The notes beneath the pieces were generated by a model. That model did no database searches. It saw only the letters and a program-made list of their open reading frames with translations, and was not told where the DNA came from. Both the position numbers and the translations under genes were made by a program. DNA of 64,000 nucleotides from Shigella phage KPS64, in the sequence record MK562502, one strand, 5' to 3'. Positions 3,820 through 6,200 of this stretch are shown here, in pieces (position 1 is the stretch's first letter; each line of letters starts with the position of its first letter).

Positions 3820-3982
3820 AGGTTAGCATGTTTAGCGCAATTATCCTGTTTGTTTTTGTTGTTTTATCATTATCTTACTTCATAAGTAAACTGTTAAGCA
3901 TAACATACAAATCAGCCTTAGCCCTTACTCTGTTATCATTTGTAGTAAATGCAGTAGTCAGAGAATTTTTAATATAAAGTTG

Positions 3983-4010
3983 TTGACATAGAAAATTTGG
4001 TGAGTATACT
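3983..4010 (+). promoter_or_regulatory. sigma70-like promoter (TTGACA, 16-nt spacer, TATACT)
   Basis: Near-consensus -35 and -10 hexamers read directly at 3983-3988 and 4005-4010. Confidence 0.5.
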
Positions 4011-4040
4011 GAGCAGCATAAACCAACGGGTACTCACCAG

Positions 4041-4079
4041 CATCACTTAAGAGTCTTTTAAGAGGGTTTTTAAGTGATG
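4041..4079. repeat. 39-bp palindromic element CATCACTTAAGAGTCTTTTAAGAGGGTTTTTAAGTGATG (copy 1)
   Basis: 10-bp perfect inverted repeat arms; second copy at 5600-5640. Confidence 0.6.
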
Positions 4080-4082
4080 CTC

Positions 4083-4154
4083 GGTAAGGTTCGGTTGGGT
4101 GTGGTATGGTCTGGTATGGCTGGGTTGGGTCTGGTCCGGTTTGGTGAGGGTAGT
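4083..4154 (+). repeat. pentameric (GGTNN)n tract 1, about 14 units
   Basis: Splitting into 5-mers gives ggtaa ggttc ggttg ggtgt ggtat ggtct ggtat ggctg ggttg ggtct ggtcc ggttt ggtga gggta. Confidence 0.7.
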
Positions 4155-4156
4155 TA

Positions 4157-4182
4157 GTCTCAGCTACATTAAAATGAGACTC
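4157..4182 (+). other. hairpin with conserved loop GCTACATTAAAA (family member 1)
   Basis: Stem agtctca/tgagact; loop shared with hairpins at 4292, 5572, 5705. Confidence 0.5.
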
Positions 4183-4229
4183 ACCTTTTTAAAAGGTCTT
4201 TAAAAGGGTCTTTTAATGAGGTTTCGCTA

Positions 4230-4299
4230 GGTAGGGTAGTGTCCGGTTGGGTCTGGTAAGGTCAGGTTAGGTAAAGTGAGGTAAGGGTGGATGGTAGTA
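4230..4299 (+). repeat. pentameric (GGTNN)n tract 2
   Basis: ggtag ggtag tgtcc ggttg ggtct ggtaa ggtca ggtta ggtaa agtga ggtaa gggtg. Confidence 0.65.
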
Positions 4300-4319
4300 G
4301 CCACGTTAAAAATCTACCA
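4292..4319 (+). other. hairpin with conserved loop TAGCCACGTTAAAAAT (family member 2)
   Basis: Stem tggtag/ctacca; covaries with tggcag/ctgcca in copy at 5705. Confidence 0.5.
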
Positions 4320-4394
4320 AGTTTCTAAAGAGTCTTCTGTTGAGGGTTCTTTATAAACAACTTAACAATAAACTAAAGTGTGGAGCTAAATGCT

Positions 4395-4982
4395 ATGAAA
4401 CTGTTAAATATCAAAATCACTGGCACTCGTCCTTTCCTGAGCCATGCTGATACTCTGTCAGACCCATTAAATCCTCTGACAAAGTATCACAAGTCTCTGT
4501 CTAGTAAACGTAAAAAGACTGACGAAGACTACGCTCTCTTAGCAGAGAGTCAACTGGTAACCTCTTGTTACTACGACGAGCAACTAGGTTTTGTTATGAA
4601 CGGTGAGATGATTGAGGCTTGTATCAAGTCTGGTGCAAAACTCAACAAACTTGGTAAGGTAATTGACCGAGCCATTATGCTGACAGATGTAGTCTTCCCA
4701 ATGACTATTAAGAACTGTCCAGCAAACCCACAAGAACTAGCTAAGAACCAAGACTTTATCTATGCGAAGTCTGTTAAGATTGGCACAGCACGAGTTATGA
4801 GCTACCGTCCAATCTTCCGTGACTGGTCTGTAGAGTTTGGTTTGATGTTTGATGAAGAACAAATTACCAAAGAAGAACTCTTGATGGTTCTGGAAAATGC
4901 TGGTAACCTTTGTGGTGTAGGTGATTGGCGTCCACGCTTTGGTCGTTTTTCTGTAGAAGTTATTTCAGAAGGTAATGTTTAA
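4395..4982 (+). CDS. hypothetical protein (about 195 aa)
   Basis: ATG at 4395 nine nt after GGAG; no recognisable motif. Confidence 0.45.
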
Positions 4983-4984
4983 TT

Positions 4985-5425
4985 ATGAATACAAAAGCAT
5001 TAGCAGCAAAGTTTAGTTACGGTGATACTGTATCACACTCTGAGATGGACACCTTCTTAGGTATTGTGAAGCCGACTTATCAAGGTGACATTGTTAAGTA
5101 CGAAGATGAAATGAAGGCTTACGCACTTACACGCCTAAATCGACTTGAGAAGTTTATTGAGAAGCTTCTTAAAGAAGAGAAGATTTATCTGGTTACTTCA
5201 ATGGGTGTTGGTTATCGTGTGGTGGAACCTAAACATCAAGCAACTATTGCAAAACGTAAAATGTCTAGTAAGATTGGTCGTGCTTTAAAACAAGCCACTC
5301 AAGCGATTGAGAATGTGAACACTATGGCACTTAGTCATCAAGAACGTTCACGACTGATTGAACAGCAAAACCATTTAGCTGCTATGAAAGCTAACATTAA
5401 CAAGCAACGTAGAAAACCTTTCTAA
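4985..5425 (+). CDS. hypothetical protein (146 aa)
   Basis: ORF followed by an intrinsic terminator. Confidence 0.45.
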   Translation: MNTKALAAKFSYGDTVSHSEMDTFLGIVKPTYQGDIVKYEDEMKAYALTRLNRLEKFIEKLLKEEKIYLVTSMGVGYRVVEPKHQATIAKRKMSSKIGRALKQATQAIENVNTMALSHQERSRLIEQQNHLAAMKANINKQRRKPF

Positions 5426-5434
5426 GTTGACTAG

Positions 5435-5460
5435 GCAGCCTCTTCGGAGGCTCCTTTTTA
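5435..5460 (+). terminator. rho-independent terminator
   Basis: agcctc-ttcg-gaggct hairpin followed by a T-run. Confidence 0.6.
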
Positions 5461-5499
5461 AAAGGTCTTCAAAGAGGGTCTTTTAATGAGGTCTGTCAT

Positions 5500-5570
5500 G
5501 GTGATGTTTGGTAGGGTTTGGCAAGGTTCAGTCAGGTAAAGTGTGGTCTAGTAAGGTAGGGTGTGGGTAG
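5500..5570 (+). repeat. pentameric (GGTNN)n tract 3
   Basis: ggtga tgttt ggtag ggttt ggcaa ggttc agtca ggtaa agtgt ggtct agtaa ggtag ggtgt gggta. Confidence 0.65.
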
Positions 5571-5571
5571 T

Positions 5572-5599
5572 TAATCGGAGCTACATAAAAATTCGATTA
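5572..5599 (+). other. hairpin with conserved loop GAGCTACATAAAAAT (family member 3)
   Basis: Stem taatcg/cgatta. Confidence 0.5.
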
Positions 5600-5640
5600 C
5601 ATCACTTAAGAGTCTTCTAAGAGGGTTTTTAAGTGATGTT
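5600..5640. repeat. 39-bp palindromic element (copy 2)
   Basis: ACATCACTTAAGAGTCTTCTAAGAGGGTTTTTAAGTGATGT, near-identical to 4041-4079. Confidence 0.6.
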
Positions 5641-5641
5641 T

Positions 5642-5709
5642 GGTGGTGGTTTGGTAATGTGAGGTAAGATGTGGTATAGTAAGGCGGGGTTTGGTATGGA
5701 AGGATGGCA
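5642..5709 (+). repeat. pentameric (GGTNN)n tract 4
   Basis: G/T-rich tract with GGT-type triplets at roughly 5-nt period. Confidence 0.55.
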
Positions 5710-5732
5710 GTAGCCTTATAAAAAATCTGCCA
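5705..5732 (+). other. hairpin with conserved loop TAGCCTTATAAAAAAT (family member 4)
   Basis: Stem tggcag/ctgcca. Confidence 0.5.
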
Positions 5733-5750
5733 AATAAGCTATAAAATCTG

Positions 5751-5785
5751 TTGACAAGTCAGGTGTTATAGCTTATTTTTATACT
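5751..5785 (+). promoter_or_regulatory. candidate sigma70-like promoter
   Basis: TTGACA at 5751-5756 with TATTTT (17-nt spacer) and TATACT further downstream; exact -10 unclear. Confidence 0.35.
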
Positions 5786-5819
5786 CAAATATATACAAAA
5801 TTTTATATAGGAGATAGTT

Positions 5820-6200
5820 ATGAAAAAGTTACTTGTTGGTGTCCTTGCTATTGGTATGAGTTTTAGTGCAGCAGCTATGAAGATGCCTGAAGCAAACTTT
5901 AATGGTGTCGCTTTAGAATCTTGTAAGATTGTACAGAAAATCGCTTCAAATGCTGGAGAGTTGACTAAACCGTTGTCTGCTCAGACTGTTCAAGAAATGA
6001 CTGATAAGATGGTTGACTACAACTACCATTTTATGGGAGATTACTATGACAGATTAGCAGATGAGATGGTTACTCAGAACGTTGACCTTCTTGATAGTAA
6101 AGGTATCGAAACTGTAGAAGATGTGAAAGATAATTTTATGCGTGAGTCTTTCAAAGGTGTTCAATACTTTATTGAAAATCGTCACTGCACGGGTTTATAA
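5820..6200 (+). CDS. putative secreted protein (126 aa)
   Basis: N-terminal signal-peptide-like MKKLLVGVLAIGMSFSAAA. Confidence 0.45.
   Translation: MKKLLVGVLAIGMSFSAAAMKMPEANFNGVALESCKIVQKIASNAGELTKPLSAQTVQEMTDKMVDYNYHFMGDYYDRLADEMVTQNVDLLDSKGIETVEDVKDNFMRESFKGVQYFIENRHCTGL

What the first reader, a model, noticed from the sequence alone, without database searches (positions are those of the whole stretch)
3960..5820. Duplicated repeat-rich island with four pentameric (GGTNN)n tracts around a two-gene operon
Two intergenic regions (3960-4394 and 5426-5819) flank genes 4395..5425 and carry the same modules in shuffled order: a 39-bp palindrome, a TTTTTAAAAGGTCTT(T/C)AAAGAGGGTCTTTTAATGAGG motif, a hairpin family with conserved loop, and four 70-nt tracts where GG(T) recurs every 5 nt for about 14 units. 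A 5-nt period cannot be coding. Tract 1 lies just downstream of a near-consensus sigma70 promoter, an arrangement seen at transcription-primed (R-loop) replication origins; tandem triplets with 2-nt spacers are also how ring-shaped RNA-binding proteins such as TRAP are bound.
Basis: seen in the sequence. Interest (0 to 1): 0.8.

Follow-up and report, generated by a model that had tools for sequence, protein, structure and literature searches.

The report
Phage VIPR guide-RNA locus (known)
The four GGTNN tracts are real and are the guide RNAs of a VIPR system, a phage-borne, CRISPR-like RNA-guided DNA-recognition system first described in a June 2026 preprint; this phage's guides point at a satellite phage that lives in E. 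coli chromosomes.

Summary
Four tracts of GG(T/C)NN with a strict 5-nt period lie on the + strand at 4083-4152, 4220-4289, 5490-5569 and 5648-5702. They give the four strongest period-5 signals in the 64-kb window. They flank a two-gene operon.

Each tract is a vrRNA: conserved GGY alternating with hypervariable NN, then a pseudoknot tail. In the published model the NN dinucleotides read double-stranded DNA with a one-base skip.

I tested that rule here. All four guides find their best matches (81-90% of NN positions) in an E. coli satellite phage. Other skip rules give 63-75%. Two guides hit two allelic forms of the start of the satellite's tape-measure gene.

The R-loop-origin reading is not supported. 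The TRAP analogy is right only in spirit. The system is already known. Small residual points are the 5' hairpins, a near-self match, and module shuffling.

The parts
3983..4010 (+). sigma-70-type promoter for vrRNA1 and the upstream array (TTGACA-16-TATACT)
   Evidence: Consensus scan, 11 of 12 matches. Its function is inferred.
4039..4081 (+). 5' leader hairpin, type 1 (the '39-bp palindrome'), ending 1-2 nt before the first repeat of vrRNA1
   Evidence: Inverted repeat I7/D3. RNAfold pairs it fully. It is more stable on the + strand RNA because of G.U pairs.
4083..4147 (+). vrRNA1 guide: 13 GGYNN units, NN code AA TC TG GT AT CT AT TG TG CT CC TT GA
   Evidence: The best one-base-skip match is 21/26, in a small satellite gene (L035 10085-10123).
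4148..4190 (+). vrRNA1 tail: H-type pseudoknot (GTAGT/GCTAC and AGTCTCA/TGAGACT) followed by a run of five T
4184..4224 (+). 5' leader hairpin, type 2 (CCTTTTTAAAAGGTCTTTAAAAGGGTCTTTTAATGAGG)
4220..4284 (+). vrRNA2 guide: 13 units, NN code TT TA AG AG CC TG CT AA CA TA AA GA AA
   Evidence: The best match is 23/26 (units 2-10 perfect) at L039 12081-12119.
4285..4320 (+). vrRNA2 tail: pseudoknot (GTGG/CCAC and GGTAG/CTACC). Apart from the unit before GGGTG, the same tail (GGGTGGATGGTAGTAGCCACGTTAAAAATCTACC) follows the vrRNA carried by satellite L033
4329..4350 (+). fifth copy of the GAGTCTT...GAGGGTT hairpin, with no tract after it, upstream of the vipr ribosome-binding site
4395..4982 (+). 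vipr: 195-aa minimal RAMP (Cas7-like)
4985..5425 (+). vap (vap1-type accessory gene), 146 aa
5437..5457 (+). intrinsic terminator after vap (AGCCTCTTCGGAGGCT plus a T run)
5453..5493 (+). 5' leader hairpin, type 2, before vrRNA3
5490..5564 (+). vrRNA3 guide: 15 units, NN code CT AT GA TT AG TT AA TC CA AA GT CT AA AG GT
   Evidence: 27/30, with the first 11 units perfect, on codons 10-24 of the satellite tape-measure gene (L036, L038).
5565..5600 (+). vrRNA3 tail: pseudoknot (GTAGT/GCTAC and TAATCGGA/TTCGATTA)
5599..5639 (+). 5' leader hairpin, type 1 (second copy of the palindrome), before vrRNA4
5648..5697 (+). vrRNA4 guide: 9-10 units, NN code TT AA GA AA GT AT AA GG TT (AT)
   Evidence: 18/20, with the first 9 units perfect, on codons 15-23 of the satellite tape-measure gene allele in L035.
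5698..5733 (+). vrRNA4 tail: pseudoknot (AAGG/CCTT and GGCAG/CTGCC)
22043..22072 (-). near-self site: the phage's own tape-measure gene matches the vrRNA4 code at 16 of 20 NN positions

Best explanation
The region is a type II VIPR (Viral Interference Programmable Repeat) locus of the SUSP1 clade, carried by a Mooglevirus/Felix-O1-like phage.

The parts are as follows. The + strand is transcribed, from the promoter at 3983-4010 and by read-through or other starts. It yields four vrRNAs. Each has a strand-specific 5' hairpin, 9-15 GGYNN repeats and a pseudoknotted 3' tail. The 195-aa RAMP protein Vipr (4395-4982) assembles on the repeat tract.

The mechanism is taken from the SUSP1 experiments. 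The conserved GGY of each unit is held by the protein. The two variable bases of each unit pair with double-stranded DNA, reading two bases and skipping one. Binding represses transcription of the target, and Vap (4985-5425) enhances the effect.

Here the four guides are directed at a roughly 12-kb satellite phage integrated in E. coli chromosomes. That satellite carries its own tape-measure and baseplate genes related to the helper's. Two guides cover two allelic versions of the first 25 codons of the satellite tape-measure gene.

Shown here by computation: the fold, the near-identity to SUSP1, the repeat statistics, the tail pseudoknot and the target matches. Taken from the preprint for SUSP1: vrRNA expression, ribonucleoprotein formation, DNA binding and repression. 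Inferred: the role of the 5' hairpins and the promoter usage.
For: 1. Periodicity: the four strongest period-5 GG signals in the window fall at the stated coordinates, on the + strand only.

2. Co-occurrence with the gene pair:
- Homologues of gene 1 at only 37-40% identity, in IMG/VR contigs, are flanked by (GGCNN)n or (GGTNN)n tracts on the same strand.
- The same holds in Rhodococcus and Xanthomonadaceae prophage regions and in two metagenome phage contigs.
- A Streptomyces-associated phage-like contig (L031) has only a weak signal.

4. Identity to the experimentally studied system: Vipr 193/195 and Vap 143/146 identical to phage SUSP1. The preprint describes that locus as vipr + vap + vrRNAs of 9-16 YNNGG repeats with a pseudoknot tail.

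5. Repeat statistics in 59 unique tracts (712 units) from 19 related phages:
- position 1 is G in 84%;
- position 2 is G in 98%;
- position 3 is a pyrimidine in 100%;
- positions 4 and 5 carry 1.91 and 1.89 bits, and all 16 dinucleotides are used.

6. Tails: an H-type pseudoknot is found in 27 of 29 unique tails. Both stems vary by compensatory changes: GTAG/CTAC, GTGG/CCAC and AAGG/CCTT for one stem; AGTCTCA/TGAGACT, TAATCGGA/TTCGATTA, GGTAG/CTACC and GGCAG/CTGCC for the other.

7. Targets in seven satellite loci:
- The one-base-skip rule gives 21/26, 23/26, 27/30 and 18/20.
- Skips of 0, 2 or 3 give 63-75%.
- Unit-shuffled guides (200 each) reach at most 20, 20, 23 and 17.
- The skipped base falls on the codon wobble position for vr1, vr3 and vr4.

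8. Helper relationship: the satellite baseplate protein is 68% identical, and its tape-measure protein 26-54% identical, to proteins encoded in the window. These figures agree with the preprint's Fig. S14.
Against: - No expression data exist for this phage. vrRNA boundaries and promoter usage are inferred.
- vr1 (21/26) and vr4 (18/20) exceed the shuffled-guide maxima by only one position. Only seven satellite variants, out of 510 genomes that carry the element, were scanned.
- vr4 also matches the phage's own tape-measure gene at 16/20. This sits on the preprint's 80% threshold, although the preprint reports no self-targets.
- The vr2 target lies in unannotated DNA of a single satellite variant.
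- The mechanism rests on one preprint that is not yet peer-reviewed.
- The Vap model is of moderate quality, and its predicted DNA-binding role could not be confirmed here.
Confidence: 0.93

Rival explanations
1. Transcription-primed (R-loop) replication origin. A promoter fires into a G-rich non-template strand, the RNA stays hybridised, and it primes DNA synthesis.
For: A near-consensus promoter lies about 70 nt upstream of tract 1. The tracts are strongly G-rich on the transcribed-sense strand.
Against: - Only one of the four tracts has such a promoter.
- An R-loop needs G richness, not a strict GGY register with free NN.
- The tracts follow the RAMP gene pair into unrelated phages and prophages, where they sit between or after the two genes.
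- The NN code matches foreign DNA.
- Satellites with no replication module nearby carry a single such unit.
Confidence: 0.02
2. TRAP-like autoregulation. An oligomeric protein from the operon wraps the periodic triplets in its own leader and trailer RNA to control transcription termination or translation of the operon.
For: - The tracts flank the operon on the sense strand.
- Terminator-like hairpins and T runs lie next to them.
- In distant loci the tracts end in GGTTTTT just before the next ribosome-binding site.
Against: - The protein fold is RAMP, not TRAP.
- Regulation alone would not need hypervariable NN that match satellite genes at 81-90%.
- In SUSP1 the RNAs accumulate as separate species of about 100 nt and guide DNA binding.
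- A side effect on operon expression is not excluded.
Confidence: 0.03
3. G-quadruplex-forming elements. (GGNNN)n could fold into stacked two-tetrad quadruplexes in RNA or DNA that act as structural or regulatory signals.
For: GG runs separated by three bases are formally compatible with two-layer quadruplexes (sequence).
Against: - Position 3 is a pyrimidine in 100% of 712 units, and about 14% of units carry only one G. Neither is expected from quadruplex selection.
- This reading does not explain the link to the RAMP gene or the target matches.
Confidence: 0.01
4. Decoy ribonucleoprotein. A phage RAMP plus repeat RNA mimics or titrates host CRISPR or RNA-binding machinery instead of guiding DNA recognition.
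For: Phages are known to use repeat-like RNAs against CRISPR systems (my own knowledge of RNA anti-CRISPRs, not tested here). The protein is a Cas7 relative.
Against: - The family occurs in hosts with and without CRISPR.
- The variable bases carry target-matching information.
- SUSP1 experiments show programmable repression.
Confidence: 0.01

Closest known systems
VIPR system of Escherichia phage SUSP1 (type II VIPR; bioRxiv 10.64898/2026.04.26.720920)
   Same: - Vipr is 99% and Vap 98% identical.
- The position is the same, between the DNA ligase gene and a conserved block of small genes.
- The GGY/NN repeat RNAs and the pseudoknot tail are the same kind.
- The target is the same satellite family, carrying tape-measure and baseplate homologues.
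   Different: - The array layout is 2 upstream + 2 downstream here. SUSP1 has 1 + 3, and related phages range from 1-3 upstream and 0-3 downstream.
- The NN codes are specific to this phage.
- One guide sits at 80% match to the phage's own tape-measure gene. The preprint reports no such case.
Cas7 backbone filaments of type III and type IV CRISPR-Cas effectors (Csm3, Cmr4, Csf2)
   Different: - The step is 5 nt with sequence-specific GGY, not 6 nt without sequence preference.
- There is no CRISPR array, no cas1/cas2 and no Cas5, Cas6 or Cas10 partners.
- The guide pairs discontinuously (2 bases read, 1 skipped) rather than in 5-nt segments.
- The protein is smaller (195 aa) with a single RRM.
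TRAP and the trp leader of Bacillus subtilis
   Same: Triplets repeated with 2-nt spacers in single-stranded RNA, bound by a homo-oligomer (my own knowledge of TRAP).
   Different: - TRAP is an 11-subunit beta-sandwich ring that reads GAG/UAG and controls an attenuator.
- Here the protein is a RAMP and the triplet is GGY.
- Here the spacers carry the information and the output is DNA recognition.
Phage-encoded CRISPR-Cas of Vibrio phage ICP1 directed against the PLE satellite
   Same: A lytic phage carries an RNA-guided system whose guides match a chromosomal satellite that parasitises it (my own knowledge, not tested here).
   Different: ICP1 carries a complete type I-F CRISPR-Cas with adaptation genes and destroys the target. 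VIPR type II has one RAMP, no nuclease and no known adaptation, and it represses.

Membership tests
VIPR (type II, SUSP1 clade) | vipr gene encoding a minimal RAMP of about 20 kDa with a single RRM and a glycine-rich loop | tested here: met
VIPR (type II, SUSP1 clade) | adjacent vap accessory gene | tested here: met
   143/146 identical to the SUSP1 gene downstream of vipr. A gene of 146-178 aa follows vipr in all ten distant loci examined.
VIPR (type II, SUSP1 clade) | vrRNAs made of 9-16 tandem YNNGG units with conserved GGY and hypervariable NN | tested here: met
   Four tracts of 9-15 guide units. Across 712 units: G 84%, G 98%, Y 100%, N 1.91 and 1.89 bits.
VIPR (type II, SUSP1 clade) | invariable 3' tail with a pseudoknot | tested here: met
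   An H-type pseudoknot fits all four window tails and 27 of 29 unique tails. Both stems show compensatory variants. The search was a simple script, not a thermodynamic model.
VIPR (type II, SUSP1 clade) | targets obey the one-base-skip rule (NN read, one base skipped) | tested here: met
   81, 88, 90 and 90% NN match with skip 1. Skips 0, 2 and 3 and reversed guides give 63-75%. Shuffled-guide maxima lie below every observed value.
VIPR (type II, SUSP1 clade) | [quoted passage not shown] | tested here: met
   The best hits of all four guides lie in the satellite. Wobble phase holds for vr1, vr3 and vr4. The vr2 site is intergenic.
VIPR (type II, SUSP1 clade) | no self-targeting at 80% NN match or above | tested here: inconclusive
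   vr1-vr3 reach 69-70% in the window. vr4 reaches 16/20 (80%) on the phage's own tape-measure gene at 22043-22072. Only 64 kb of the genome was available.
VIPR (type II, SUSP1 clade) | vrRNAs expressed as RNAs of about 100 nt that co-purify with Vipr and direct DNA binding and repression | not testable with these tools
   Shown for SUSP1 in the preprint. Applied here by 99% protein identity.
CRISPR-Cas | CRISPR array of 23-50-nt repeats separated by spacers, plus adaptation genes cas1/cas2 | tested here: not met
   The repeat unit is 5 nt, and no direct-repeat/spacer array is present. The operon holds only two genes, and Pfam finds no Cas domain in either of them or in three neighbouring genes.
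CRISPR-Cas | Cas7 backbone with a 6-nt register | tested here: not met
   The period is 5. Power at period 6 is at background in six distant loci. Period 6 was not measured in the window itself.
TRAP-type attenuation | TRAP fold and (G/U)AG triplets | tested here: not met
   The fold is RAMP. The triplet is GGY.
R-loop / transcription-primed origin | promoter reading into each G-rich element, and selection for G richness rather than a fixed register | tested here: not met
   A single sigma-70 site serves four tracts. There is a strict register with fixed Y and free NN.

The most novel reading that the evidence does not exclude
vrRNA units may be exchangeable cassettes: a 5' G.U hairpin, a guide, and a pseudoknot tail. 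The conserved hairpin and tail modules would act as recombination and processing handles. Guides would then be swapped between helper phages and their satellites, giving a crude way of acquiring guides in a system with no known adaptation step.

Four observations are compatible with this reading:
- Two hairpin types and two tail types occur here in all four combinations.
- The number of units varies from 1 to 5 among phages whose Vipr proteins are 97-100% identical.
- A satellite vrRNA carries essentially the same tail as window vrRNA2 (from GGGTG onward).
- Two guides in one phage cover two alleles of the same satellite site.

A second open point: vrRNA4 differs from the phage's own tape-measure gene at only two guide units. 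Either self/non-self discrimination is that fine, or the phage also tunes its own gene.
Probability: 0.2. Interest if true: 0.65.

Novelty: already known. Interest (0 to 1): 0.4.

Why it matters
VIPR is a newly described way of reading DNA with RNA, and a proposed ancestor of the CRISPR RAMP proteins. This window holds a textbook copy.

No sequence-based resource recognises it:
- Rfam 15, Pfam, NCBIfam 20 and PADLOC give nothing.
- PHROGs lists the proteins as function unknown.
- The GenBank records examined call the genes hypothetical. At most they mark a 'DR_4' repeat (wV8) or a predicted terminator (ASO1B).

So the locus will keep turning up as an unexplained oddity until annotation catches up.

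For this phage the practical value is a concrete, testable prediction. Four guides are aimed at a satellite that is present in about 9% of complete E. coli genomes. Two of them are aimed at alternative alleles of the satellite tape-measure gene start.

Tried and rejected
- **Rfam.** A permissive scan of 3000-7000 gave only chance-level hits. Four distant arrays gave nothing at E 0.1 or below.
- **Protein family libraries.** Pfam, PHROGs, NCBIfam and PADLOC gave no function for either protein.
- **Direct BLASTP of gene 2 against its positional equivalents in distant loci.** This found nothing. Homology became visible only in a multiple alignment and profile search.
- **Ideas considered and dropped before the literature search:**
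  - arrays of Shine-Dalgarno-like AGG sites acting as ribosome sponges;
  - UGGU sites pairing with tRNA 3' ACCA ends;
  - Chi-like GCTGGTGG decoys;
  - primase recognition hot spots;
  - double-stranded-DNA iterons.

  None of these explains a fixed GGY with free NN, the strand specificity, or the link to a RAMP gene.
- **ARAGORN.** It finds no tRNA-like element in the window locus.
- **Peak at 57857.** The fifth-best period-5 peak is a different, purine-rich feature, not a vrRNA.
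Full report
**1. The observation**

I read 3600-6200 and measured the period-5 power of GG in 70-nt windows over the whole 64-kb window, on both strands.
- The four highest values are 15.4, 12.4, 11.0 and 7.9, at 4080, 4220, 5500 and 5633. All are on the + strand.
- The largest value in 50 shuffles was 7.3, and the - strand never exceeds 5.7.
- Parsed in register, the tracts are 14, 14, 16 and 11 units of GG(T/C)NN at 4083-4152, 4220-4289, 5490-5569 and 5648-5702.
- The promoter TTGACA-16-TATACT at 3983-4010 is present.

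Tract 4 is the weakest of the four.

**2. Where the window comes from**

Megablast of 3800-5900 against phage records finds 248 Ounavirinae phages. The best are Shigella phages Sf17, Sf18 and Sf19 at 96%, which belong to the genus Mooglevirus.
- In these records the two genes are 'hypothetical protein'.
- The wV8 record marks 'DR_4' repeats over two of the tracts.
- The ASO1B record marks predicted terminators and promoters.
- Nobody annotates an RNA. The Felix O1 genome paper does not mention these repeats.
- Rfam has no family for the region.

**3. The tracts travel with the gene pair**

Gene 1 (4395-4982, 195 aa) has no Pfam domain and belongs to an unknown-function PHROG. Relatives in IMG/VR include six loci at only 37-40% identity.
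- Five of those six have strong period-5 GG tracts on the same strand, next to the gene. The sixth (L021) has only a weak signal.
- L025 has (GGCNN)n and L026 has (GGTNN)n, before, between and after the two genes. Each tract ends in GGTTTTT just ahead of the next ribosome-binding site.
- The protein family has more than 500 members.
- Period-5 tracts lie next to the gene pair in a Rhodococcus prophage region, a Xanthomonadaceae contig and two metagenome phage contigs. A Streptomyces-associated phage-like contig has only a weak signal. Periods 4, 6 and 7 stay at background there.
- A second gene of 146-178 aa always follows gene 1. It is a remote homologue of window gene 2, visible only in a multiple alignment and profile search.

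**4. What gene 1 is**

An AlphaFold2 model built on 46 homologues has pLDDT 95.1 and pTM 0.87.
- The invariant C-terminal residues G170, G174 (nearly invariant), R179, G183 and F185 correspond to the glycine-rich loop of RAMPs.
- Gene 2 gave a moderate model (pLDDT 77.6) with no informative structural neighbour.

**5. It is already described**

[quoted passage not shown] The preprint defines VIPR systems as follows.
- The components are a vipr RAMP gene, a vap accessory gene and vrRNAs. Each vrRNA has 9-16 YNNGG repeats with conserved GGY and hypervariable NN, followed by an invariable tail that forms a pseudoknot in the SUSP1 clade.
- In phage SUSP1 the vrRNAs accumulate as RNAs of about 100 nt and co-purify with Vipr.
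- They direct binding to double-stranded DNA by a rule in which each NN pairs and one target base is skipped.
- Binding represses transcription.
- 18 of 20 natural targets lie in a satellite phage.

Window Vipr is 193/195 identical to SUSP1 Vipr, and window Vap is 143/146 identical to SUSP1 Vap. The window locus therefore belongs to the clade that was studied experimentally.

**6. Membership tests run here**

- *Repeat statistics.* In 59 unique tracts (712 units) from 19 related phages, position 1 is G in 84%, position 2 is G in 98%, and position 3 is T in 89% and C in 11%. Positions 4 and 5 carry 1.91 and 1.89 bits. The tract finder imposes GG but not the pyrimidine or the free NN.
- *Tails.* A simple search finds an H-type pseudoknot in all four window tails and in 27 of 29 unique tails. 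Three sequence versions of stem 1 and four of stem 2 are related by compensatory changes.
- *Finding the satellite.* A distant blastn of the upstream region against complete E. coli genomes hit unannotated DNA in 149 genomes, matching tract 2 and its tail. The hit in strain EC12 lies in a roughly 12-kb element inserted in a DUF72 gene. That element carries a serine recombinase, baseplate and tape-measure genes, an HNH gene and a single vrRNA with its own promoter. Relatives of the element occur in 510 of 5426 genomes.
- *Targets.* I fetched six more variants and scored the four window guides against all seven. The one-base-skip rule gives 21/26, 23/26, 27/30 and 18/20. Skips of 0, 2 and 3, reversed guides and the window itself give 63-80%. 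Two hundred unit-shuffled versions of each guide reach at most 20, 20, 23 and 17.
- *Where the guides land.* vr3 is perfect over its first 11 units on codons 10-20 of the tape-measure gene in L036 and L038. vr4 is perfect over 9 units on codons 15-23 of the other tape-measure allele, in L035. The skipped base is the wobble position for vr1, vr3 and vr4. vr2 lands in intergenic DNA upstream of a 329-aa gene in L039.
- *Helper relationship.* The satellite baseplate protein is 68% identical, and its tape-measure protein 26-54% identical, to proteins encoded in the window. The preprint reports 72% and 26% for SUSP1.

**7. What remains open**

- *5' hairpins.* Every tract is directly preceded by a hairpin that is more stable on the + strand RNA than on its complement. 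This holds in 54 of 54 unique leaders (mean -17.0 against -11.0 kcal/mol), because the stems use G.U pairs. The preprint text does not say how vrRNA 5' ends are made: the words hairpin and processing occur only in other contexts. Processing or boundary signals are my inference.
- *Module shuffling.* Two hairpin types and two tail types occur here in all four combinations. Unit number varies from 1 to 5 among close relatives.
- *Near-self match.* vr4 matches the phage's own tape-measure gene at 16 of 20 NN positions (22043-22072), differing from the satellite allele at two units.

**8. Verdict**

The finding is real and striking, but it is an already described system. The R-loop-origin reading is not supported. 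The TRAP comparison captures only the idea of periodic protein binding.

Noticed in passing
window 57840-58140: A second non-coding repeat island. A purine-rich stretch (57876-57915) is followed by four copies of a roughly 43-nt unit, ACCTGCACA..TGAAAATGAA....CCCTTTGGAGTC, at 57926, 57971, 58012 and 58087. It lies between divergently arranged ORFs. It is not a vrRNA. It could be iterons or an array of regulatory sites.
   Followed up: partly
L033 14990-15100 (E. coli EC12 satellite): The satellite has no vipr gene. It carries one vrRNA with its own TTGACG-17-TATAAT promoter, 12-13 GGYNN units and a terminator. Apart from the unit before GGGTG, its tail is the same as that of window vrRNA2. It presumably borrows the helper's Vipr protein.
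   Followed up: partly
L033 19576-19611: The best one-base-skip match of that satellite vrRNA is 22 of 24 NN positions, to a REP-like palindromic element (TAGGCCTGATAAGCATAGCGCATCAGGC) in host DNA between cmoB and torZ. The best match is not in another satellite or in the window phage. The preprint text does not mention host repeat elements as targets.
   Followed up: no
L027 5110-5650 (Rhodococcus globerulus prophage region): Five (GGCNN)n tracts are separated by a conserved element of about 60 nt with a T-arm-like GGCGGTTCGATTCCGCCGCC and an acceptor-like stem. ARAGORN calls two of them 'tRNA-???'. Rfam gives no hit. This suggests processing of the array by tRNA-maturation enzymes. The preprint mentions hammerhead-interspersed arrays but not tRNA-like ones.
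   Followed up: partly
window 22043-22072 (- strand): The phage's own tape-measure gene matches vrRNA4 at 16 of 20 NN positions, at the site homologous to the satellite target.
   Followed up: partly
window 33810-38801 (- strand): A cluster of 26 tRNA genes, as expected for Felix-O1-like phages.
   Followed up: no
L021 2495-3552: One distant vipr/vap pair on a 146-kb viral contig has the two genes almost abutting and no strong tract next to them. Only weak, degenerate period-5 signals lie 400-1400 nt downstream.
   Followed up: no
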